From the sequence record PQ863253.1: 64,000 nt of DNA. One strand, given 5' to 3'. Of the stretch, positions 9,051 to 54,605 are shown piece after piece. Each line of letters begins with the position of its first letter. Within the stretch, counting starts at the first letter, position 1. Origin of the DNA: Escherichia phage Ptacy1496. Below the pieces are notes generated by a model, which was given only the letters and a program-made list of their open reading frames with translations, did no database searches and had not been told where the DNA came from. Made by a program: the position numbers and the translations under genes.

Positions 9051-10370
9051 TCACACATAAAACACATCATAACGACCACGGGTAACACCAACATAAAGAA
9101 GTTGTTGGGCCAATTCAGCATCTGCATAATGAATACAAGGCGTATAAATGAAAGCACGGTCTACAGACATACCCTGAGCTTTATGGAATGTTGATGCAGG
9201 AAGTGCTTTCACTTTACTAAACTGTGATTTAGCATCCCAAAAATCACTCCATGGAGCTTTTCCGCCTTTGTTCCAATTTTTATAAGTTTCTGCCGTTTTA
9301 CCTAAAAATAGGTTAAACTTATATAACTCTTCATCAGATGAAATTATTTTAATCTTTTCACGATAATATTCATCATCGCCGTAAGTTTCTACTGTTAAAT
9401 CCCAATGACGAATTAAGTATTCTCCAGGAACACCACGAGCTTTAACAAACGTCGATGTATACTCTGCTTCTATAATACGAACTAATTGTCCGTTATTAAA
9501 AATAATTTCTGACACAGGCTTTCCATCAATTTTATATGTTTTAATTAATGGTTCCTGCATTACAATAATTTCACCGACAATAAAATCTTTATCAGTTTCA
9601 AAAATCTTTTTACGAATAATGCTATTTAACTTGTCAACAGATTTATTCGTAAATGCCATTACGCGATTTTCAAACAAATCATCTAGTGATTTTACGATTG
9701 AAAAATAATTTACCATAAAATCGCGTAAAGCGGTATCACCAGTAAATCCACGTACTCCATGCCCGTCAACAATTTTATCATAAATCCACTTACCGTTACG
9801 AACGTCAGTAGCTACATCAATAATAGGAGCATTACTGCGTTTAACTTCAGTGAGTTCACACTGATAAAAATCTTTGTGTGTAAAGAATGGACTGATATAA
9901 GCAGTGTTTTCTCCTGGGTCAACAGGTCTAATCTGCTTATTATCACCTATTCCAATTATAGTACACCACGGCGGGATAGTTGAAAGCAAAATTTTGAAGA
10001 GCTTTCTATCATACATTGACACTTCGTCGCAGATTAATACCCTGCATTTAGCTAAATCTGGTACTTCTTTTTGTTCAAAAAGAACGTTTTCTTCATACGT
10101 AACTGGGTTAATTTTAAGAATACTATGAATAGTACTCGCTTCTTTCCCTGACAGTTTTGAAAGAATCTTTTTAGCCGCATGCGTAGGAGCTGCTAAAATA
10201 ATACCAGTTTCACCCGTAGATATTAAAGCTTCAATGATGAACTTAGTAAGAGTAGTCTTACCAGTACCGGCAGGTCCATTAATAGTTACATGGTGTTTCT
10301 TTTCTTTAATAGCCTTCATAACAATGTTAAAGGCATTTTTCTGGCCTTCGGTCAAATCATCAAATGTCAT
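9051..10370 (-). CDS. dda: Dda DNA helicase (SF1B)
   Basis: 439 aa as in T4 Dda; Walker A GPAGTGKT; N-terminus matches recalled Dda. Confidence 0.93.
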   Translation of the reverse strand: MTFDDLTEGQKNAFNIVMKAIKEKKHHVTINGPAGTGKTTLTKFIIEALISTGETGIILAAPTHAAKKILSKLSGKEASTIHSILKINPVTYEENVLFEQKEVPDLAKCRVLICDEVSMYDRKLFKILLSTIPPWCTIIGIGDNKQIRPVDPGENTAYISPFFTHKDFYQCELTEVKRSNAPIIDVATDVRNGKWIYDKIVDGHGVRGFTGDTALRDFMVNYFSIVKSLDDLFENRVMAFTNKSVDKLNSIIRKKIFETDKDFIVGEIIVMQEPLIKTYKIDGKPVSEIIFNNGQLVRIIEAEYTSTFVKARGVPGEYLIRHWDLTVETYGDDEYYREKIKIISSDEELYKFNLFLGKTAETYKNWNKGGKAPWSDFWDAKSQFSKVKALPASTFHKAQGMSVDRAFIYTPCIHYADAELAQQLLYVGVTRGRYDVFYV

Positions 10371-10678
10371 CGTAAATTCCCTGCAATTGGTATACTAACA
10401 ATACGCCCAGTATCTAAAATTCGCTGATATAATCTTTGCGTGTCTACGTCAGGCTTAACATGTTTAACTTCTATTTTATTAAACCAAAACTTGCGTGGAG
10501 TCTCAACTAGTCTTGGAATTCCCATACCTAAAGCTAGTTTATATTGGTCTTTGAGAGTAGTAAAAACTCTATCAGCAATCTCTCTTTCAAAAAACACAGC
10601 AGGACGATGTTCATCAAGTGGAACTGGCGCCGTAAATCCGTCTTTGTCTCGGTAAACTATCGCATATACATAAACCAT
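10367..10678 (-). CDS. hypothetical protein (dda.1 position)
   Basis: 103 aa ORF overlapping dda start by 4 nt. Confidence 0.55.
   Translation of the reverse strand: MVYVYAIVYRDKDGFTAPVPLDEHRPAVFFEREIADRVFTTLKDQYKLALGMGIPRLVETPRKFWFNKIEVKHVKPDVDTQRLYQRILDTGRIVSIPIAGNLR
10486..10618. repeat. 133-bp direct repeat, copy 1 (inside dda.1-position ORF)
   Basis: about 85-90 percent identical to 10759..10891 by eye. Confidence 0.85.
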
Positions 10679-10729
10679 ATTATCCTCGGATAAGTTTAAA
10701 AATTGAACAATTTAGCGGGTATCCTCTTT

Positions 10730-10912
10730 TCAGTTTAAGTTTATCAATAAAAGACAAAAAAACTTGCGTGGAGTCTCAACTAATCTTGGAATTCCCTTAC
10801 CTAAAGCTAATCGATACTGCTCTTTAAGAGTAGTAAATACTTTATCAGCAATATTCCATTCAAAAAATACAGCAGGACGATGTTCATCAAGAACTTTTTC
10901 ACAATTTTCCAA
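10730..10912 (-). pseudogene. truncated duplicate of the dda.1-position gene
   Basis: 60 aa ORF whose residues LDEHRPAVFFE...GIPRLVETPRKF repeat the middle of the 103-aa ORF; lacks its N- and C-terminal parts. Confidence 0.5.
10759..10891. repeat. 133-bp direct repeat, copy 2 (truncated gene copy)
   Basis: near-duplicate of 10486..10618, 273 bp downstream. Confidence 0.85.
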
Positions 10913-45082: not shown

Positions 45083-45403
45083 TTATAGCGTAATCCATTC
45101 TCGTACTGTCTGAGTTACTACACGTTCATGGGGCTCGACTAGTTCAACAGTCGGAACTGCATAATACCAGTCAGAATGATAAGAACCTGACCGAGATTCA
45201 TTTACCGCTACATGTACATTATGTTTTGGACTAAAATAAACACACTGACGATATTGACATTTGCCGTCTTGTACCCAGTCTTCTATTTCGACAGGTTTAA
45301 GATAATCGGAAAAATCGAAATCATAGTTTTCTGAAAATGCATCATGGTCTTCAATGATTTCGCTCAGAACTGCATCAACATCTAATTTATTTTCAATAGT
45401 CAT
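45083..45403 (-). CDS. hypothetical protein
   Basis: 106 aa ORF. Confidence 0.45.
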   Translation of the reverse strand: MTIENKLDVDAVLSEIIEDHDAFSENYDFDFSDYLKPVEIEDWVQDGKCQYRQCVYFSPKHNVHVAVNESRSGSYHSDWYYAVPTVELVEPHERVVTQTVREWITL

Positions 45404-46063: not shown

Positions 46064-46306
46064 TTATTCCTTAATTCCTAGTACTTGTTTAAAAGTCTCG
46101 TCGTAATCAAGACTTTGGCCCGTTTGTTCTTTATGTTTGTATATAATATCACTTACTTCTGATAGCATATTTTTATATGAACGAGTTAAAGCAGATTTAA
46201 GCACGCTGTATCTATCAGGAAATTTACCATGTTCATTATAATAAGCTATTGCTAATTCACGGACTGCCTTTTCAGCAGCCTCCATATATTCTTTACGCTT
46301 GGTCAT
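46064..46306 (-). CDS. hypothetical protein
   Basis: ORF track 46064..46465; start moved to [14 protein letters not shown]... (80 aa). Confidence 0.4.
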
Positions 46307-46610
46307 TTTCTTCTCGGTCAAATCGGTGTTTACAATGGCGACATTTATAACGAAGATTACTAGTCTGCCAATGGACCAATTGCACCTGTTCAGTACCGCA
46401 TTCAGGGCAATTAGGAACGTTTTTAGAAGCTCTTTCACGTCGTTCAACCATAGCCATAATAGCATCCCATGCTGGAGGTTTAAAATCTAAATCGTCGCAG
46501 CCGTGAATCTTTCCACGCATTTCCATATCATCTTCCTCACCAGCCATAATAATTTTAATTAAACTGGAATTACTTGAAGCTGCAATGTCTTCTAATAAAC
46601 GCTTTTTCAT
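46293..46610 (-). CDS. zinc-ribbon protein
   Basis: 105 aa; CPECG...CRHC four-Cys motif. Confidence 0.45.
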
Positions 46611-47536
46611 TTCAATACCTCAATAGCATTACGTAAACCATTTGCTTTTGCATTAAGAGCTTTTAACAATTTGGTGTGTTCTGCAATTTGGGCTTCAACT
46701 TCAATCAAACGGGCATTGAGATATTCACGTTCTTCACTCAGATTATCAACCTTTTCTACTTTAGGCTCTTTTACAACTGTCTTATATGTATTAGGGTTCT
46801 TCAGTTTAATTAGAATGCGTGAACTGTATAACATTGAACCATTATCTTCGGTTTCGTCATACATTTCCACTACGTCCATGATTTTTAACATCATGCGGAG
46901 TTTATAAGACAACGAACGAATAGTTTTGTTGTGCTTATTAATTTCTTTAGCTGTCATGGTGCCAAGATTACGTGAGTAATAATAAGGAACCTGGATATTA
47001 ATTAATACTGATGAACCACCTGGCTTGTGTGTTACTTCATCAGCAATAACCCAGTCCTTAACATGAACTGTATTTGTACGGTCATCGCCCGCGGTAAATA
47101 GTTTACGAGCATGCTTAAAAAGCATATTCACTTGGTCATTGAATTGACAAGCGAACTTATCAGCAAATTTAGTTTCAGGAATGGTAGATAACCAATCAGC
47201 CAAATGGGTCTTTTTAACATCGTTAACAATAGTAAATTCAACCAAATCGGTTATAGATGTCGCAGATTTAATGAAGCTCGGCTTCATAAAGTTTTCAATG
47301 TTATCACGAGCTACAGTAGAAGATAACATACGAGAACGTTTAAACCATTCAAGCAAATTGCCTACCGAATAAGAATAAGCGTTTTGAGTATCTTTACAGA
47401 TATGATTTTCCTGGCCAACATATTGAAGAAAATCACGAAGAATATTATTGATTACTGCTCTGTGTCCGATTTGATAATTACGGTGTTTAGTAATAAGACT
47501 GTCAAAATAATCAATATAATGCTTACGAGTTTTCAT
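46607..47536 (-). CDS. hypothetical protein with C-terminal coiled coil (array member A)
   Basis: 309 aa; last about 45 aa heptad-like ([42 protein letters not shown]). Confidence 0.5.
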   Translation of the reverse strand: MKTRKHYIDYFDSLITKHRNYQIGHRAVINNILRDFLQYVGQENHICKDTQNAYSYSVGNLLEWFKRSRMLSSTVARDNIENFMKPSFIKSATSITDLVEFTIVNDVKKTHLADWLSTIPETKFADKFACQFNDQVNMLFKHARKLFTAGDDRTNTVHVKDWVIADEVTHKPGGSSVLINIQVPYYYSRNLGTMTAKEINKHNKTIRSLSYKLRMMLKIMDVVEMYDETEDNGSMLYSSRILIKLKNPNTYKTVVKEPKVEKVDNLSEEREYLNARLIEVEAQIAEHTKLLKALNAKANGLRNAIEVLK

Positions 47537-47588
47537 GTTCTTCTCACTTGGTTAATGATTTATACTCCGAGCCATCCTTGGCTTTAAA

Positions 47589-48590
47589 TTACTTAATTAA
47601 CTGTAAAGCTTGTTCAAGACGATCCAAGCGATTGACAGATTCTTCCCAAATCTTTTTAGCCTGCTCATATTCTTTCTGCGCTTTATTAGAAATTTCTAGA
47701 ACTTCTTTATAAGCTTTTTCTAGTGCAATAACTTCTGGACGAATTTCTGCCGGTTCAGGCGAATCATCAAGATTATCCATTAGTTCCTCAAGGGTAGTTT
47801 CTTCTTTAGGAGTATTCACAATTTCCTCACATTTTTGTTGATAAATTTCTTTATCAGTAGGTGAATAAGCACATTTCACTTCACGAAGACTAATTACAAT
47901 TTTATATCCTTCCCATCCGCATATATTCTTAAAAGGATATGTATGAATATTTTCTACTGTTTCCATACAAAGTAATGCAGTCTCTAACTGACGAGTTATA
48001 GTGCTAGCAATTGAGAAAAATTTATTAATATTCTTTTGGTTAGTTTCTGGTGTAAAAAATCCATAATTCACAAAAATAGCTACTTTATTTTTATCAAGCT
48101 CATATTCTTTTACGATAATCATATCAGAAGCCAAAGGATGAATTTGACGATAATCGCCATAACATAATTTAGAAGCTGATTTTAGAATTTGTCCTTTGAA
48201 AAGTCTGAAATTACTAATCCAACGACGAGTAAAAATATTCTCAGGGTCTTCTTTATTATTAAGATGATAAGAATTAACATCACCGAACCAATTATATCCT
48301 ACTACATCTTTAGTTCGTTTAATTTCTTTCCCAAAATTACCAAGCATATCCCGATTAACCAAATATGAAAGAAGACGAGACTCTTTAAAGGTTTTCTTGA
48401 TAACATCTTTATCTACACGGCTAGAAATTTTACGAATTTCATGAATAAATTTAGTAGAAGAAACAATACTTGCATCAACACTATTGAGCCATTGATTGAT
48501 AATAGAAAGAACGATATTTTGACCAAACATCGGTATAGCTTTATCATCAATAACGCTATTGAATGATTTGATATATTCGTTACGAGTCAT
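47589..48590 (-). CDS. hypothetical protein with C-terminal coiled coil (array member B)
   Basis: ORF track 47589..48641; start moved to MTRNEYIK with GGAG Shine-Dalgarno downstream of early promoter; 333 aa. Confidence 0.5.
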   Translation of the reverse strand: MTRNEYIKSFNSVIDDKAIPMFGQNIVLSIINQWLNSVDASIVSSTKFIHEIRKISSRVDKDVIKKTFKESRLLSYLVNRDMLGNFGKEIKRTKDVVGYNWFGDVNSYHLNNKEDPENIFTRRWISNFRLFKGQILKSASKLCYGDYRQIHPLASDMIIVKEYELDKNKVAIFVNYGFFTPETNQKNINKFFSIASTITRQLETALLCMETVENIHTYPFKNICGWEGYKIVISLREVKCAYSPTDKEIYQQKCEEIVNTPKEETTLEELMDNLDDSPEPAEIRPEVIALEKAYKEVLEISNKAQKEYEQAKKIWEESVNRLDRLEQALQLIK

Positions 48591-48618
48591 ATTAATCTCC
48601 TCAGTAGAAAGTAAGAAC

Positions 48619-48648
48619 ATTATACCACATCCTTGTGGCAAAGTAAAC
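48619..48648 (-). promoter_or_regulatory. phage early promoter
   Basis: plus strand ATTATA-18nt-GTAAAC; nearly identical core to promoter at 2418..2447. Confidence 0.7.
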
Positions 48649-49667
48649 TAGTTCAGTGCATTTAGTGCATTGTTCAGTTTAGAACGTTGCTTTGTCAGAT
48701 TTTGAACCCTTGACTGAGCTTGTTCTAACGCCTTTTCAGCTTCTAGCACTTCATTGGTCGCTTTAACGAGTTCATCATCTACTGCCTTAAGAGACTTCTC
48801 AATCGCGTCAGCGTGCCATTTTTCTACAGGTTTAAAATTTGAATTTTCAGTAGGAAGAAAACTCACTTTATTAAGTTTACATGCATCTATATTGCTTGAG
48901 CTATACATCCAAAATTTAGGATCGTTTGATAAGTAATTGGATAAATTTAAGTTATCTTGCACTTCCTGCTTTTTCTCTTGCGGGACTTCGTCCTTTCTCA
49001 AAAAATCGTATTTAAATGAAACGATCATATCAAGTTCATATGATGTTGTATCTAACTTAAATCGTTCAAAACGAGGTAAAATCTTAGATTGAACAGCAGC
49101 AACAACATCCATATACTTAAATGCTTCTGTCAACTGCGATTTAAGGCATTCACAAATTGAAAGAGAATTTTTTGTATTAGGTTTAAAGCTAATTCGTGCA
49201 GTTCTATTATTTTCTTTTAATGGTCTTACTTCCATCTGAAGAGTATAACCATCAAATTTCAGGTTCTTTAAGTTAATGTCAGAACCTTTTAATCGACTAG
49301 CCGTCGACAAAATTTGCTTTAATTGTTTACGGAATAGAGCAATAAATCTCCATTCAATACGATAATGATTTGGATTAAAAAATCCAGATGATAAATCGAC
49401 CTTACTCTGACCAACGCCTTGAACAAATAGAGGATTTTTATAATCAATAGTTTTACAGAAATCGGTGAGCTGCTCACGAGCCGTCATTTGTGTAATATAC
49501 CCCGCTTTACTAAAATGACGTAACCATTCACTGCTATTCATATATTTAAAGTGAATATCACGATTAACTTTATCAGGGTCTAAATTATTTTGGCACAAAA
49601 ATGTCATAACATCACGAGTATAGCTGGCATTACGAACCATATCTTCAATTTGAGAACGAGTTTTCAT
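48648..49667 (-). CDS. hypothetical protein with C-terminal coiled coil (array member C)
   Basis: 339 aa; C-terminal heptad-like 50 aa. Confidence 0.5.
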   Translation of the reverse strand: MKTRSQIEDMVRNASYTRDVMTFLCQNNLDPDKVNRDIHFKYMNSSEWLRHFSKAGYITQMTAREQLTDFCKTIDYKNPLFVQGVGQSKVDLSSGFFNPNHYRIEWRFIALFRKQLKQILSTASRLKGSDINLKNLKFDGYTLQMEVRPLKENNRTARISFKPNTKNSLSICECLKSQLTEAFKYMDVVAAVQSKILPRFERFKLDTTSYELDMIVSFKYDFLRKDEVPQEKKQEVQDNLNLSNYLSNDPKFWMYSSSNIDACKLNKVSFLPTENSNFKPVEKWHADAIEKSLKAVDDELVKATNEVLEAEKALEQAQSRVQNLTKQRSKLNNALNALN

Positions 49668-49675
49668 GGTGTTCC

Positions 49676-50584
49676 TTAAGATTTAAGTAAATCAACAATT
49701 TTAATTAATTTTTCACGCTCAGATTTAGCTTTACTACTCAATCCAGATAGTCTGAAAATTTCATCGTCATACTGTTGAATAGAAATATTCAACTCTTCAA
49801 TTTGCTTATTAAAATAATCAATTTGTTCAGAATGTTTTTCGTTACTACGAACTGGTACAGGTTTTGTAGGTAATTTAGATGAACTGGATTCATCCGGGCG
49901 ATAAATTAAAATACAACTTGAACCAATCGGGCATTTTGCACCAGACGAATATTCTAATGTTCCGGCTTCTTTTAAAACTTCAAAAGCTAAACAGAGATGA
50001 TGTCCCATATTAACATAATCTGTAGAGCGAGATCTGATGTAATAATCATCTCCGCGAATACTAAATTTAAAGCATTTAAGGTCTTCTGTATTATTGGTCT
50101 TAAAAATCATTTGTTTATCTAGACCTTTAGCTAATCGAGCGCCTAATGCTAATAATCGTCGTTGATTTTCCCACAAATCCGCAATCATTTGGTCAAATGA
50201 TAATTTCGGCATTAGTCGACCATAAAGGTCGTATCCTTTATTATAATTGCGAAGGATTTCACTCGCATTAATACGAGACAACGCTCCAATTTTATTAAGG
50301 GCTTTCATAATGCGATTAGATAAACCCATTCCAGACCCGTTTGTTCGTTGTAAATGTTTATCTAATCCAAACCCAATATCAACTTTAAATTTATCTAAAA
50401 TTTCAGCATGAACATCTCTGTCAATAACATTCAAATCCAAAGTTGGGTTAAATCTATGAAAAAATTTATCTGGCTCTCCACGACGAAGTACAGTCCATTC
50501 ATTCAATTTTTTATTAACTAAAGATTTAATTACTGCATTGACATTATTAATTACTACTGACATATTTTCCTCACTCAATTTCAA
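49676..50584 (-). CDS. hypothetical protein with C-terminal coiled coil (array member D)
   Basis: 302 aa; C-terminal heptad-like region. Confidence 0.5.
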   Translation of the reverse strand: MKLSEENMSVVINNVNAVIKSLVNKKLNEWTVLRRGEPDKFFHRFNPTLDLNVIDRDVHAEILDKFKVDIGFGLDKHLQRTNGSGMGLSNRIMKALNKIGALSRINASEILRNYNKGYDLYGRLMPKLSFDQMIADLWENQRRLLALGARLAKGLDKQMIFKTNNTEDLKCFKFSIRGDDYYIRSRSTDYVNMGHHLCLAFEVLKEAGTLEYSSGAKCPIGSSCILIYRPDESSSSKLPTKPVPVRSNEKHSEQIDYFNKQIEELNISIQQYDDEIFRLSGLSSKAKSEREKLIKIVDLLKS

Positions 50585-50810
50585 TTTTACTAAATATACA
50601 GAATAAGATAGAACAGACTATATAAGCACCACACACAGATTGAACTAATACCATTCCAAAGAACCAAACAATATTATCAAACAATGTCTGTTTTACGTCG
50701 AAAGGACGTAAACTTACAGTAATATTATCGCCTTTTTCTATTGATGAATACATCTCTGGTGAAATATATTCCGCTAAATCTATAACCGTCTTTGAGTTCA
50801 TATACGGCAA
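50571..50810 (-). CDS. small protein with C-terminal hydrophobic segment (overlaps previous ORF in another frame)
   Basis: 79 aa ORF with non-ATG track start; overlaps 50725..50979 by 86 nt. Confidence 0.3.
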   Translation of the reverse strand: MPYMNSKTVIDLAEYISPEMYSSIEKGDNITVSLRPFDVKQTLFDNIVWFFGMVLVQSVCGAYIVCSILFCIFSKIEIE

Positions 50811-50979
50811 TAAACGATAAACTAGACCCCTTTCCTTGAGTTCCTGTAAGGGTATTAACTACAGTAACATCATAATCTTTATAATGCATATAATCATTAA
50901 TAGCATAATAACCATATGCAACTACTACACATAAACAGCATATCAATAAATTCAATCTTTTAATTATCAACTGTTTCAT
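50725..50979 (-). CDS. small membrane-anchored protein
   Basis: 84 aa; N-terminal hydrophobic segment LNLLICCLCVVVAYGYYAI. Confidence 0.4.
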   Translation of the reverse strand: MKQLIIKRLNLLICCLCVVVAYGYYAINDYMHYKDYDVTVVNTLTGTQGKGSSLSFIAVYELKDGYRFSGIYFTRDVFINRKRR

Positions 50980-51034
50980 AATAATCTCAATTAAAAGGGC
51001 TTAGAACCATTATACCATCCTTGGTATAAAGCGG

Positions 51035-51562
51035 TTATGCGAGTACCGTCTTTAACCGTTCTTCAAACTTCCGAAGAGTATTCTGGCGTTCAGCTCTTTG
51101 CTTTTTGTAAGTTTCAATACGCTCTGAAATGAGAGTGTATCGTTCATTTACTGATTCTTTCATAAAATCAGGAATTTCACGAGAAGCTTTAATCTCGTCA
51201 AATTTATCAATAACAGCTTGCTCTTCAGCAATTAAGTTATCATACATCAAAATATCTTTCTTGATGAACTCAATATCTTCTTGAGTTACACGAGATAATT
51301 TAGATGCTTTATCCTTTTTGTACTGTTCGTTAGTATCACGAGACCAGTGTAATGTACGATTTTTATTCGTATTCTTATAAATTTCTACAATACCAATCTC
51401 ATCAATAATAACGATCCAATTCCAACGGGATTTGTAAATTTGTCCTCCATCAACCGTGATTTCACCTCCGATTGAGATGTCATTAAAGAACTTGCTTTGT
51501 GCTTCAGATTTAAATTTACCATCGTTGTAATTTACCAGGTTGAAAATATCTTTAGCGTTCAT
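51035..51562 (-). CDS. hypothetical protein with C-terminal coiled coil
   Basis: ORF track 51035..51622; start moved to MNAKDIFNLV... with GGAGG Shine-Dalgarno; 175 aa. Confidence 0.5.
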   Translation of the reverse strand: MNAKDIFNLVNYNDGKFKSEAQSKFFNDISIGGEITVDGGQIYKSRWNWIVIIDEIGIVEIYKNTNKNRTLHWSRDTNEQYKKDKASKLSRVTQEDIEFIKKDILMYDNLIAEEQAVIDKFDEIKASREIPDFMKESVNERYTLISERIETYKKQRAERQNTLRKFEERLKTVLA

Positions 51563-52027: not shown

Positions 52028-53014
52028 TTATTTCAGAAGAGTAACCTCAGCGATTTCTTGCCAACCGTTTTTGTCGGTCATAATAAAGTCAGCAAGATAA
52101 AGTGCAGTACGCAGTGAAACATTGCGTAAACGATTAACATTGACTTTCATCCATGATAATGCTTTATAAGTTTCTTCATCAGAAAGACCGCGCTTTTGCA
52201 TCATGTCGGTTGAAAGAATAACATCTTCAACCCTGACCATAATTTCTTCATTAGTGTGAACACCCAAATCTAAATAAACTGAGCGGGACACTAATGCTTG
52301 TAAATGTGGAGCAAGTTTAGTACCACGGTCTAATTCGCGGTCAATGTCAACGTTTGTGATAAAAACAATCGTTCCTTTAAATTCAAACTCACGCTCAATG
52401 CCTTTTTCTTCTAAGTAAGAAGATGCAGTGCTCCAGCAGACTTTACGGGTCTCTCCAGTGTCCAGAGCAGCTTTCAGAAGATTAAGAATGTCCATATCAG
52501 AGAAAACATCCACATCATCAATCAAAAGGACAGAATTCTCTTCACGATTATTCCAAAGTTGTTCATAAAGACCGATACCGGAGATTTTACCGTTAATGCT
52601 TTTATATTCAATGTATCCATTATCATTTGCTTTATTCAAAGCTTTATCTAAAGAATACGTTTTACCAATACCCGCCGCACCAGAGATAATTAATGAACGA
52701 ATGTTTCCGTTAATAATACCATTCGTCATCATTCCCATAACATTAAATCTTTTATTAATGCGGGTTTTCATATCTTCATATGATTCTTTAACTTCTTCAA
52801 CTTTTACACCATCATATGAAATGTCTGATTTGTAAACCCAAACACCACGACGCTTACCGTCAATTTCAACAAAAACTTTACCATCTCCTTGTGCATCTAC
52901 CGGAGCATTATCTGGGAACCATTCACCTAAGAGCTCAAAAGTTCCAGAGATTTCTTTACCGAAGTAGATACCCTTATTGATAGTTACAGTTTTCATTTTA
53001 TTCTCCAATCTCAC
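52028..53014 (-). CDS. P-loop ATPase (AAA-like) with N-terminal extra domain
   Basis: 328 aa; Walker A GAAGIGKT, Walker B LLIDDVD. Confidence 0.6.
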   Translation of the reverse strand: MRLENKMKTVTINKGIYFGKEISGTFELLGEWFPDNAPVDAQGDGKVFVEIDGKRRGVWVYKSDISYDGVKVEEVKESYEDMKTRINKRFNVMGMMTNGIINGNIRSLIISGAAGIGKTYSLDKALNKANDNGYIEYKSINGKISGIGLYEQLWNNREENSVLLIDDVDVFSDMDILNLLKAALDTGETRKVCWSTASSYLEEKGIEREFEFKGTIVFITNVDIDRELDRGTKLAPHLQALVSRSVYLDLGVHTNEEIMVRVEDVILSTDMMQKRGLSDEETYKALSWMKVNVNRLRNVSLRTALYLADFIMTDKNGWQEIAEVTLLK

Positions 53015-53065: not shown

Positions 53066-53329
53066 TTATTTTAACGTTCGCCAAATTTTTACTGCTTCAC
53101 GGCGAGATACTTCTACAGCTCCAAGTTCTACAGCTTTTTGGCGTCGGCGAGCGTGTAAGTCATAATGTTTAATGCGTTTATCTTGAAACCAAGAACGTTT
53201 CATTCCTATTGCTTCTGCCATTTCATGAAGCTCTTCAATATCTCCATCAGTGAACATATGACAATTTTTAGTTGGATGACCGCGAAGTTTCCATCCATGA
53301 TTCATTAAAACATCTACGTAAACTGTCAT
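53066..53329 (-). CDS. DUF4031-like small protein
   Basis: 87 aa; YVD...ELHEMAEAIGMKRSWFQ...HYDL pattern resembles recalled DUF4031 consensus. Confidence 0.5.
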   Translation of the reverse strand: MTVYVDVLMNHGWKLRGHPTKNCHMFTDGDIEELHEMAEAIGMKRSWFQDKRIKHYDLHARRRQKAVELGAVEVSRREAVKIWRTLK

Positions 53330-53475
53330 TGATTCTTCTCCAAATAAGTTTCGATAATTTTCTGAGCGAGATAAACTGCATTATCTTCAGTTGCATCTTC
53401 TAAGAAACTTTCAAAACACTCTGAAATTTCTTCTGTGTCAATCAACTTTTTTACTTCAATTGGTGTAATTTTCAT
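53326..53475 (-). CDS. small acidic protein
   Basis: ORF track 53326..53595; start moved to ATG downstream of early promoter; 49 aa. Confidence 0.35.
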   Translation of the reverse strand: MKITPIEVKKLIDTEEISECFESFLEDATEDNAVYLAQKIIETYLEKNQ

Positions 53476-53512
53476 TTTGTTTTTCCGTTTAAGTGTTTGT
53501 TTTGATAGTTGT

Positions 53513-53542
53513 ATAGTACCATAAAGCTTTATGCTTGTAAAC
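53513..53542 (-). promoter_or_regulatory. phage early promoter (TACTAT -10)
   Basis: plus strand ATAGTA-18nt-GTAAAC. Confidence 0.6.
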
Positions 53543-53571
53543 AATTTTGTGAAAAATTTTTGAAATAAAAA

Positions 53572-53589
53572 GGGAGCCCGAAGGCTCCC
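53572..53589 (-). terminator. intrinsic terminator GGGAGCC-uucg-GGCUCCC plus U-rich tail
   Basis: 7-bp GC stem immediately after nucleotidyltransferase gene stop. Confidence 0.75.
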
Positions 53590-53591
53590 TA

Positions 53592-54605
53592 TCATTTATA
53601 ATAACTTCGGTGGTTTTCAAGATAAACCCTCTCAAGGAAGTCATCCCAAAAACCCATGTCTACTTTTTGCTGCATACCGTTCTTAGAAGCTTCAGTAGAT
53701 GCTGCTTCTACTTGATCGACCACATCTTCCAAAAACTCTTGAACCGTTTTAAATGGATGTTTACCCAACTTCACGTCGAGAATAAATGGAGCATCTTGGA
53801 GTGGATAAACCAAGTCACCAGTTTTGTAAATTTCCAATAGTTGGAGTCCACCACGGCAAGCATGACTCAGAGCTTTCCAGTCAATACCTTCATTGGCTTC
53901 GGCCTTACGAGCACGTTCACCGTATTCAGCATCTAATTTGTTCAGTGACTGCTTAAGCTCAATAAGAGAAAGCGTTGTCTGATATTTACGACCCAACACT
54001 GTGTAGAACGTCTGTGGGCCTGTTTTCTCATGATTATGGAACACCCATTCACAGAATTCGTTTTCTGGAAGACGATGCTTAATATCTTCAACTTTAGTAC
54101 GACGCTGCTTAATAGAACCATCTTCTTGGTAATCAACCCATTGCTCAGGGATTTGATTAACTACTTTCAATACATCACGTAATGCAGCCAAACGAGAACC
54201 CTTAACGCCGTATTTAGAAGCTTGCTTACGGACATATCCTAAATAGGATTTCATGTTAGTCGTATAAAAACGAGAACGGTTGTCTTGAATAAACTTCCAC
54301 ACATCAGGCAAATCAGATTTAACCACTAACTCAGGTGGAGTGTGAAGCATATCTAACGCTACAGTTTCACCATCTGCTGCTAATTTAAAGAAATATTTAA
54401 GACTGTATAGTTCATGGTCAATATCATCTTTAGTGTTTTTAGATGATGTGTTGTTAGTGTTTTTACTCATGTGCTCTTTAACATTTCCAATAAGAATATC
54501 ACGAGCAGGAGGAACAAAGATTTCTTTAAAATCTACATCAGATTCTGGGGTAGAAGTTCCATAAAGATGACTACCAAAATAGCTTTTCATTACTGTTTTC
54601 ATCAT
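53592..54605 (-). CDS. Pol-beta-superfamily nucleotidyltransferase-like protein
   Basis: 337 aa; N-terminal GS-x9-SDVD motif (FGSHLYGTSTPESDVDF) plus downstream acidic residues. Confidence 0.55.
   Translation of the reverse strand: MMKTVMKSYFGSHLYGTSTPESDVDFKEIFVPPARDILIGNVKEHMSKNTNNTSSKNTKDDIDHELYSLKYFFKLAADGETVALDMLHTPPELVVKSDLPDVWKFIQDNRSRFYTTNMKSYLGYVRKQASKYGVKGSRLAALRDVLKVVNQIPEQWVDYQEDGSIKQRRTKVEDIKHRLPENEFCEWVFHNHEKTGPQTFYTVLGRKYQTTLSLIELKQSLNKLDAEYGERARKAEANEGIDWKALSHACRGGLQLLEIYKTGDLVYPLQDAPFILDVKLGKHPFKTVQEFLEDVVDQVEAASTEASKNGMQQKVDMGFWDDFLERVYLENHRSYYK

What the first reader, a model, noticed from the sequence alone, without database searches (positions are those of the whole stretch)
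46607..51562. Tandem array of four to five genes each ending in a ~45-aa coiled coil
Four consecutive genes (309, 333, 339, 302 aa), and a fifth of 175 aa further downstream (51035..51562), each carry a different globular N-terminal region but end in a heptad-like, Leu/Lys/Glu-rich segment. They are packed with 8-50 bp spacers and share one internal early promoter. Shared architecture with divergent N-termini suggests a paralogous family with variable specificity domains on a common oligomerisation or targeting module.
Basis: seen in the sequence. Interest (0 to 1): 0.55.

Follow-up and report, generated by a model that had tools for sequence, protein, structure and literature searches.

The report
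T4 nrdC.3–nrdC.6 paralog array
Four neighbouring early genes of a T4-like phage are diverged copies of one protein design (a basic two-domain body, a floppy linker and a coiled-coil tail), and because one copy (NrdC.5) is already known to disarm the bacterial Dsr1 immune protein, the other three are good candidates for new anti-immunity factors.

Summary
The window is a Tequatrovirus, 99.5% identical to Citrobacter phage PhiZZ6. The genes are the orthologues of T4 nrdC.3, nrdC.4, nrdC.5, nrdC.6 and nrdC.8.

- **Observation:** it holds for the four adjacent genes. Of 89 minus-strand ORFs in the window, only these four end in a Pro/Gly-poor heptad segment. It does not hold for nrdC.8.
- **N-terminal regions:** they are not unrelated. 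NrdC.3, NrdC.4 and NrdC.5 are full-length paralogues: hhalign gives 98% and 92%, and two bridging sequences match both the NrdC.4 and NrdC.5 profiles.
- **NrdC.6:** it joins at the structural level only. The evidence is a Foldseek match at E 6.5e-5, the same order of secondary-structure elements, and a shared A-[SR]-[KR]-L-x-G-x-D motif.
- **Architecture (AlphaFold2):** helical bundle, α/β domain, disordered linker, then a roughly 48-residue terminal helix. Within each family that helix is better conserved than the body.
- **Distribution:** sequence relatives are almost confined to Tevenvirinae. Structural relatives sit as an adjacent pair at the same locus in Acinetobacter phage Acj61.
- **Function:** all four genes are non-essential in T4. 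T4 nrdC.5 counteracts Dsr1, and its neighbours gp49.2 and NrdC.1 counteract OLD and Septu.
- **Best reading:** a paralogous counter-defence family. The bodies would give target specificity and the coiled coil would drive oligomerisation. Both steps are inferred, not shown.

Interest is moderate.

The parts
46607..47536 (-). nrdC.3 orthologue, 309 aa; family member. This is a divergent allele, only 59.7% identical to T4 NrdC.3.
   Evidence: ORF; T4 annotation; phrog_1435 E 1e-115; hhalign to the NrdC.4 family 98%; allele classes
47589..48590 (-). nrdC.4 orthologue, 333 aa; family member. The AlphaFold2 model shows a helical bundle (3-84), an α/β domain (88-235), a disordered linker (260-284) and a long helix (285-332).
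   Evidence: model pLDDT 83.7
48648..49667 (-). nrdC.5 orthologue, 339 aa, Pfam DUF7235; 94% identical to T4 NrdC.5, the reported anti-Dsr1 factor.
   Evidence: Pfam E 3e-116; identity to T4; hhalign to the NrdC.4 family 92%, E 7e-7; function from PMC9391042
49676..50563 (-). nrdC.6 orthologue, 295 aa from the ATG (302 aa if the TTG at 50584 is used); probable distant family member, linked at the structural level only.
   Evidence: model pLDDT 77.5 with the same element order as NrdC.4; Foldseek NrdC.4 model to JS10 NrdC.6, E 6.5e-5; hhalign finds the shared motif region at E 0.004, probability only 8%
46610..46738 (-). C-terminal heptad helix of NrdC.3 (about residues 267-309)
   Evidence: a/d occupancy 0.83, 11 of 1000 shuffles reach it; background test
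47592..47738 (-). C-terminal heptad helix of NrdC.4 (residues 285-333)
   Evidence: single helix 285-332 in the model; a/d 0.75, period-3.5 power z = 4.6
48651..48806 (-). C-terminal heptad helix of NrdC.5 (about residues 288-339)
   Evidence: a/d 0.92, 0 of 1000 shuffles reach it; weak matches to coiled-coil Pfam families DUF4164, CENP-F_leu_zip and V-SNARE_C
49679..49840 (-). C-terminal helical module of NrdC.6 (residues 242-295), predicted as two helices broken at SGLSS
   Evidence: a/d 0.75, 8 of 1000 shuffles reach it
48619..48648 (-). T4 early-type promoter GTTTAC-N14-GTGGTATAAT between nrdC.5 and nrdC.4; its first G is the last base of the nrdC.5 stop codon.
   Evidence: sequence; consensus scan; the same site is annotated as an early promoter in SA20RB
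51035..51562 (-). nrdC.8 orthologue, 175 aa.
   Evidence: hhalign probability at most 1.5% to every family; heptad test at chance; not recovered by the C-terminal HMMs

Best explanation
nrdC.3, nrdC.4, nrdC.5 and, more distantly, nrdC.6 are tandem paralogues of one Straboviridae protein family. All four are early, non-essential accessory genes.

Each protein has a basic body (pI about 9) made of an N-terminal helical bundle and an α/β domain. A disordered linker of 15-25 residues follows, then an amphipathic heptad helix of 43-54 residues.

The most likely function is counter-defence. The diversifying body would bind the sensor of a host immune protein and stop it from firing, as NrdC.5 does for the SIR2 protein Dsr1. 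The conserved C-terminal helix would make the inhibitor dimeric or multimeric, giving avidity for oligomeric defence proteins. The paralogues would cover different sensors or sensor variants.

Shown: paralogy, architecture, conservation pattern, non-essentiality, and that T4 NrdC.5 is sufficient against Dsr1. Inferred: direct binding, oligomerisation through the helix, and any anti-defence role for NrdC.3, NrdC.4 and NrdC.6.
For: **Paralogy**
- PHROG 1435 holds both NrdC.3 and NrdC.4, and BLASTP gives 27% identity over 160 aa.
- hhalign gives NrdC.3-NrdC.4 98% and NrdC.4-NrdC.5 92%. Bridging proteins P0237 and P0240 hit both profiles at 96-97%.
- For NrdC.6, the Foldseek match is E 6.5e-5 at probability 1.0, and the order of secondary-structure elements is the same.
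- The motif ARKLFTAGDD / ASKLCYGD / ASRLKGSD / GARLAKGLD is located independently by hhalign.

**Module**
- NrdC.4 has a single long helix after a disordered linker.
- The heptad statistic is unique to these four ORFs in the window.
- Within each family the helix is better conserved than the body.

**Real genes**
- dN/dS is 0.07-0.30.

**Accessory and variable**
- All are non-essential in T4 transposon data.
- Copy number differs between genera.
- Record counts in the phage database are 741, 653, 553 and 540 for NrdC.6-, NrdC.3-, NrdC.4- and NrdC.5-like genes.
- The nrdC.3 allele has been replaced: dS about 1.0 against about 0.1 in the flanks.
- Natural deletions and chimeras exist.

**Function**
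- T4 nrdC.5 alone restores plating on Dsr1-expressing cells (PMC9391042).
- The window protein is 94% identical to T4 NrdC.5.
- Flanking genes gp49.2 (anti-OLD, PMC13096335) and nrdC.1 (anti-Septu, bioRxiv 10.1101/2025.11.20.689424) make this an anti-defence neighbourhood.
- The Dsr1 sensor is one of a large, diversified family shared with Avs7 (PMC13581612). That is a natural target set for diversified paralogues.
Against: - Only NrdC.5 has any functional data, and its mechanism is unknown. Its effect on Dsr1 could be indirect.
- There is no gene-wide positive selection, which a strong arms-race model might predict.
- The basic bodies would also suit nucleic-acid binding.
- HIDEN-SEQ did not report nrdC.3-nrdC.6 among its anti-defence hits in the hosts tested. 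They are absent from its main-text mentions of nrdC genes.
Confidence: 0.55

Rival explanations
1. The family consists of host-takeover or nucleic-acid-binding proteins, for example dimeric DNA- or RNA-binding factors that act early in infection. On this reading NrdC.5 affects Dsr1 only indirectly, for instance through the timing of capsid-protein expression or through NAD metabolism.
For: - All four bodies are basic, with pI 9.0-9.3 and net charge +7 to +11.
- There are weak N-terminal matches to a tyrosine-recombinase N-terminal region (NCBIfam, E 0.011) and to the PHL domain.
- A coiled-coil dimer carrying basic heads is a common design for nucleic-acid binders (general knowledge).
- The genes are expressed early.
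Against: - All the domain matches are below curated thresholds.
- Lys-rich basic proteins are common in AT-rich phages, so the charge is weak evidence.
- nrdC.5 alone, expressed from a plasmid, rescues a deletion phage on Dsr1 cells. Direct inhibition explains that most simply.
- The genes are dispensable on laboratory hosts.
Confidence: 0.2
2. The α/β core is an exapted tail-terminator or neck-protein fold. The proteins would be early-made oligomeric mimics of virion structural proteins, occupying the sensors of pattern-recognition defence proteins before the real late proteins appear.
For: - Foldseek against BFVD also lists tail terminator and tail completion proteins at weak E-values.
- Bacterial sensors for the tail terminator and other core virion proteins exist (PMC13581612).
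Against: - The NrdC.6 model does not reproduce the hits.
- There is no sequence-profile support.
- The one known target, Dsr1, senses the major capsid protein, not the tail terminator.
Confidence: 0.12
3. The shared C-termini are only compositional bias in unrelated genes.
For: - C-terminal helices alone are not recovered across families by leave-one-out HMMs.
- nrdC.8 shows only generic helical, charged sequence.
Against: - Whole-protein homology holds for NrdC.3, NrdC.4 and NrdC.5, and a structural match holds for NrdC.6.
- The heptad pattern is significant against shuffles and is unique to these four ORFs in the window.
- The same architecture is found in an adjacent gene pair at the syntenic site in Acinetobacter phage Acj61.
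Confidence: 0.03

Closest known systems
T4 NrdC.5 (anti-Dsr1 factor; Srikant, Guegler & Laub, eLife 2022, PMC9391042)
   Same: The window's 339-aa protein is its orthologue: 94% identity, the same position in the genome, and Pfam DUF7235.
   Different: Only the T4 protein was tested, and only genetically. The paper does not describe a mechanism, a structure or any relationship to its neighbours.
Pfam PF26897 Phage_T4_Y04OP (NrdC.3/NrdC.4), PF23882 DUF7235 (NrdC.5), PF26899 (NrdC.6); PHROGs 1435, 2351, 2257
   Same: Each window protein falls in one of these families. NrdC.3-NrdC.4 paralogy is already implicit in Pfam and PHROGs.
   Different: The databases keep three separate families of unknown function. 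Here they are joined into one superfamily with a common architecture.
DSAD1, the phage inhibitor of the SIR2 defence protein DSR2
   Same: It is a functional analogy only: a phage protein that suppresses a sensor-plus-SIR2 NADase otherwise triggered by a virion protein (abstracts listed).
   Different: It comes from a different phage lineage and acts on a different target. No similarity was sought or found here, and the NrdC proteins have a coiled-coil tail and occur as a paralogue array.
Tail terminator / tail completion proteins (λ gpU-like fold)
   Different: The NrdC proteins carry an extra helical bundle, a linker and a coiled coil, and sit in an early-gene context. There is no sequence similarity, and the NrdC.6 model does not reproduce the match.
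Neighbouring T4 counter-defence genes gp49.2 (anti-OLD) and NrdC.1 (anti-Septu)
   Same: They lie in the same early accessory region a few kb away, are non-essential and are host-range determinants. Orthologues are present in the window.
   Different: They are small, unrelated proteins and not part of this family.

Membership tests
NrdC.3/NrdC.4 family (Pfam PF26897 Phage_T4_Y04OP; phrog_1435) | Significant full-length match to the family profile | tested here: met
   phrog_1435 gives E 1e-115 for NrdC.3 and 6e-169 for NrdC.4. All NrdC.4 homologues carry PF26897. The local Pfam copy lacks this model.
DUF7235 (PF23882, NrdC.5 family) | Score above the Pfam gathering threshold | tested here: met
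   388 bits against a cut-off of 30, full length
NrdC.6 family (PF26899; phrog_2257) | Significant full-length match to the family profile | tested here: met
   phrog_2257 E 1.6e-152; homologues at 96-98% identity carry PF26899
Proposed NrdC.3-NrdC.6 superfamily | Profile-profile homology between the member families | tested here: inconclusive
   Met for NrdC.3-NrdC.4 (98%) and NrdC.4-NrdC.5 (92%, plus bridging sequences). Not met for NrdC.6, where the probability is at most 13%.
Proposed NrdC.3-NrdC.6 superfamily | The same fold and order of elements (bundle, α/β domain, linker, terminal helix) | tested here: met
   The NrdC.4 and NrdC.6 models have the same element order. The NrdC.4 model matches JS10 NrdC.6, an NrdC.3-like protein and the Acj61 pair over their full length at probability 1.0. 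The NrdC.3 and NrdC.5 models were not built.
Proposed NrdC.3-NrdC.6 superfamily (applied to nrdC.8) | Any profile or heptad similarity | tested here: not met
   hhalign gives at most 1.5%; the heptad statistic is at chance; the gene is absent from the C-terminal HMM hits
Coiled coil | Heptad periodicity with hydrophobic a/d positions over at least 4 heptads in a continuous helix | tested here: met
   a/d occupancy is 0.75-0.92, and at most 11 of 1000 shuffles reach the observed value. NrdC.4 has a 48-residue helix. NrdC.6 is broken into helices of 30 and 18 residues.
Coiled coil | Self- or hetero-association through the helix | not testable with these tools
   Only monomer prediction was available.
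Phage counter-defence (anti-Dsr1) proteins | Neutralises the defence system in vivo or in vitro | not testable with these tools
   Shown for T4 NrdC.5 in the literature. The window protein is a 94% orthologue. There are no data for NrdC.3, NrdC.4 or NrdC.6.
Tail terminator (gpU-like) proteins | Fold match, sequence-profile match, and late expression within the tail module | tested here: not met

The most novel reading that the evidence does not exclude
The family descends from a virion neck or tail-terminator protein. It now works as an array of early-expressed, coiled-coil-multimerised decoys, each of which plugs a different bacterial pattern-recognition sensor (the Dsr1/Avs7 type and others) before the genuine late structural proteins are made. 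That would be a general 'structural-protein mimic' strategy of counter-defence in T4-like phages.
Probability: 0.1. Interest if true: 0.85.

Novelty: new variant of a known kind. Interest (0 to 1): 0.5.

Why it matters
T4 is the best-studied lytic phage, yet nrdC.3, nrdC.4 and nrdC.6 still have no assigned function, and the anti-Dsr1 activity of NrdC.5 has no known mechanism.

- **New candidates.** Because these four genes share one architecture, one experimental result becomes a family-level hypothesis. Three specific genes, and their relatives across Straboviridae, become candidates for inhibitors of other immune sensors. The Dsr1/Avs7 sensor family is large and diversified, so it is a plausible set of targets.
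- **Simple dissection.** The architecture suggests swapping bodies between paralogues while keeping or deleting the coiled coil.
- **Practical use.** Presence, absence and allele variation of these genes among therapeutic T4-like phages could help predict host range.

Tried and rejected
- **nrdC.8 as a fifth member:** rejected.
- **C-terminal helices as an independently homologous shared module:** a leave-one-family-out HMM does not recover the left-out gene. The modules are alike in design and in a short terminal pattern, L-x-x-[AI]-[LIV]-x-[ALV]-[LI]-[KN], but that alone does not prove homology.
- **Sequence searches of the PDB:** profiles of the NrdC.3/NrdC.4/NrdC.5 alignment and the NrdC.6 alignment, plus NrdC.8, gave only noise.
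- **NCBIfam, and a census of weak Pfam hits over 64 family members:** only sub-threshold or generic coiled-coil matches.
- **Exhaustive profile search of 1.84 billion representatives:** 18 hits, all from the same phage group.
- **P0235:** an unrelated 119-aa N-terminus joined to the NrdC.5 helix looked like module shuffling. It comes from a single 803-bp metagenome contig, and no phage genome holds more than 68% of it in one piece, so it may be an assembly chimera.
- **ACG-C40 'fusion' of nrdC.5 and nrdC.3:** it is out of frame, so it is a deletion scar rather than a hybrid gene.
- **Gene-wide positive selection:** not seen; ω is 0.07-0.30.
- **DNA-mimic idea:** rejected because the bodies are basic.

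Full report
**Identity of the region**

The 5.3-kb stretch is 99.5% identical to Citrobacter phage PhiZZ6. It matches 740 phage records, almost all of them Tequatrovirus. nrdC.7 lies between nrdC.6 and nrdC.8. In T4 they are all annotated as hypothetical proteins.

**Check of the observation**

- Coordinates and lengths are right, with one adjustment. nrdC.6 is 302 aa only from a TTG start. From the ATG used in T4 annotation it is 295 aa.
- Spacers between the four adjacent genes are 52, 57 and 8 bp.
- A T4 early-type promoter, GTTTAC-N14-GTGGTATAAT, sits at 48648-48619 between nrdC.5 and nrdC.4. The same site is annotated in phage SA20RB.
- For heptad character I scored the last 42 residues for hydrophobic occupancy of the best a/d register.
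  - The four adjacent genes give 0.75-0.92, and at most 11 of 1000 shuffles reach those values.
  - nrdC.8 gives 0.58, which 75 of 1000 shuffles reach.
- Applied to all 89 minus-strand ORFs of at least 80 aa in the window, the criterion picks exactly the four adjacent genes and nothing else.
It is not supported for the fifth.

**Are the proteins related?**

- NrdC.3 and NrdC.4 share phrog_1435 and 27% identity over 160 residues.
- With family alignments built from database homologues and from other phage genomes, hhalign gives two strong links:
  - NrdC.3-NrdC.4 at 98% probability;
  - NrdC.4-NrdC.5 at 92% (E 7e-7) over about 240 columns, which spans nearly the whole proteins.
- An exhaustive profile search of 1.84 billion representatives found only 18 proteins. 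Two of them, P0237 and P0240, match both the NrdC.4 and NrdC.5 profiles at 96-97% in hhalign, which confirms that link.
- NrdC.6 is not linked by sequence profiles; probability is at most 13%. Three other observations link it.
  - The one region hhalign aligns is a motif visible in all four proteins: ARKLFTAGDD, ASKLCYGD, ASRLKGSD and GARLAKGLD.
  - The AlphaFold2 models of NrdC.4 (pLDDT 83.7) and NrdC.6 (pLDDT 77.5) show the same order of elements: helical bundle, helix pair, β-hairpin, helix, β-hairpin, disordered linker, terminal helix.
  - Foldseek of the NrdC.4 model against BFVD returns the JS10 NrdC.6 model at E 6.5e-5 and probability 1.0, over its full length.
- nrdC.8 shows nothing in any test.
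- The C-terminal helices on their own are not recovered across families in a leave-one-family-out HMM test. The evidence for common descent therefore lies in the bodies, not the tails.

**Architecture**

- NrdC.4 has a helical bundle at residues 3-84 and an α/β domain at 88-235.
- A short helix follows, then a disordered acidic linker at 260-284, then one uninterrupted helix at 285-332.
- In NrdC.6 the terminal module is predicted as two helices of 30 and 18 residues.
- All four bodies are basic, with pI 9.0-9.3.
- Within each orthologue group the terminal helix is more conserved than the body. Helix versus body: NrdC.3 0.81 vs 0.59; NrdC.4 0.63 vs 0.44-0.50; NrdC.5 0.41 vs 0.28; NrdC.6 0.65 vs 0.34-0.48.

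**Distribution and dynamics**

- Other genera keep the same slot between nrdC.2 and nrdC.8 with three members rather than four.
  - Mosigvirus has NrdC.6-like, NrdC.5-like and NrdC.3-like genes.
  - Gaprivervirus and Dhakavirus have NrdC.6, an NrdC.5-like gene and NrdC.4.
- Structural relatives of 300-370 aa occur in T4-like phages of Acinetobacter, Enterobacter, Pectobacterium, Erwinia, Serratia, Yersinia and Klebsiella.
- In Acinetobacter phage Acj61, from a different subfamily, two of these relatives (330 and 304 aa) are adjacent. They lie upstream of nrdC on the same strand and also end in heptad-type helices, a/d occupancy 0.83 and 0.67 by the same statistic.
- Phage records holding each type number 741, 653, 553 and 540 for NrdC.6-, NrdC.3-, NrdC.4- and NrdC.5-like genes.
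- Rearrangements are common.
  - Salmonella phage Manna carries an in-frame NrdC.6::NrdC.4 hybrid.
  - A metagenomic protein is an NrdC.5::NrdC.3 hybrid.
  - Phage ACG-C40 carries a deletion scar.
  - Phage Sf25 has an internal duplication in NrdC.6.
- The window's nrdC.3 is a different allele from T4's: 59.7% amino-acid identity, and dS about 1.0 against about 0.1 in the flanking genes.
- All the genes are under purifying selection, with ω between 0.07 and 0.30.

**Function**

- Transposon sequencing classed T4 nrdC.3 to nrdC.8 as non-essential (supplement of bioRxiv 10.1101/2025.11.20.689424).
- A T4 deletion mutant that had lost nrdC.5 could no longer infect ECOR17 because of Dsr1. Expressing nrdC.5 alone restored plating on cells carrying dsr1 (PMC9391042).
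- The Dsr1 sensor recognises the phage major capsid protein. It belongs to a large sensor family shared with Avs7 and other defence proteins (PMC13581612).
- Neighbouring genes gp49.2 and nrdC.1 inhibit OLD and Septu.
- I found no paper that relates NrdC.5 to its neighbours or describes its structure.

**Most likely mechanism**

The family is best read as a set of counter-defence proteins. The diversifying basic body would bind a host immune sensor. The conserved coiled coil, tethered by a flexible linker, would multimerise the inhibitor.

The paralogy, the architecture and the NrdC.5 phenotype are shown. Direct binding, oligomerisation and any role for NrdC.3, NrdC.4 and NrdC.6 are inferred. 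I put this at about 0.55.

**Rivals**

- An early nucleic-acid-binding or host-takeover role with an indirect effect on Dsr1 is about 0.2.
- That resemblance is in the grey zone. The NrdC.6 model does not reproduce it, sequence gives no support, and it does not fit the known capsid-protein trigger of Dsr1.

**Novelty and verdict**

The genes and their individual database families are known, as are the NrdC.3-NrdC.4 paralogy and the NrdC.5 phenotype. The new elements, none of which I found in the papers searched, are:

- joining NrdC.3, NrdC.4, NrdC.5 and probably NrdC.6 into one family with a body-linker-coiled-coil design;
- the family's structural spread across Straboviridae;
- the prediction that the untested paralogues are counter-defence factors.

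This is a useful, testable refinement rather than a surprise. Interest is 0.5.

Noticed in passing
window 50571-50979 (-), insertion near 50772: The nrdC.7 orthologue, a predicted membrane protein, is split into two overlapping ORFs of 84 and 79 aa. The cause is a 1-nt insertion relative to T4 and SA20RB. It could be a pseudogene, a sequencing error or a frameshift site.
   Followed up: partly
L001 (T4 NC_000866) 10067-10894; compare window 49676-50563: The reference T4 nrdC.6 (275 aa) is frameshifted near its 3' end and lacks the coiled-coil tail. tblastn recovers the full protein in two pieces. Another T4 record, and the T4 annotation used for HIDEN-SEQ, carry the intact gene of about 296 aa. 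The reference therefore has either an error or a laboratory-strain mutation.
   Followed up: partly
window 46607-47536 (-): nrdC.3 exists in at least three discrete allele classes among T4-like phages: about 95-100%, about 75% and about 59% identity to this one. T4, T2 and T6 carry the 59% class. dS against T4 is about 1.0, compared with about 0.1 in the flanking genes, which points to allele replacement by recombination.
   Followed up: partly
L007 5215-6252 (Salmonella phage Manna); P0056; P0122 (Shigella phage Sf25): These are natural in-frame hybrids and duplications within the array. Manna carries an NrdC.6 body joined to the NrdC.4 linker and helix (345 aa). P0056 is NrdC.5 joined to NrdC.3. 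Sf25 NrdC.6 has residues 183-265 duplicated (378 aa). Whether any of them is functional is unknown.
   Followed up: partly
window 45083-45403 (-) and 46064-46306 (-): These ORFs sit at the positions of T4 gp49.2, recently reported as an OLD inhibitor, and nrdC.1, recently reported as a Septu inhibitor. They lie immediately downstream of the array, so the whole stretch looks like an anti-defence region.
   Followed up: no
window 53066-53329 (-) and 53326-53595 (-): Two small genes lie between nrdC.10 and nrdC.11 and are absent from reference T4. One is a DUF4031 protein (Pfam E 8e-22), also present in phage ACG-C40. The other, 89 aa, has no family match.
   Followed up: partly
window 52028-53014 (-) and 53592-54605 (-): nrdC.10 gives only sub-threshold P-loop matches: AAA and novel-STAND NTPase families, best 22 bits against cut-offs of 27-34. 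nrdC.11 matches the RlaP nucleotidyltransferase family ('RNA repair pathway DNA polymerase beta') above threshold. Both are further accessory genes of possible defence or counter-defence relevance.
   Followed up: no
window 46293-46610 (-): nrdC.2 (105 aa) carries a C-terminal zinc-ribbon-like CxxC...CxxC motif, with several sub-threshold zinc-ribbon Pfam hits. It overlaps the 3' end of nrdC.3 by 4 bp, which suggests translational coupling.
   Followed up: no
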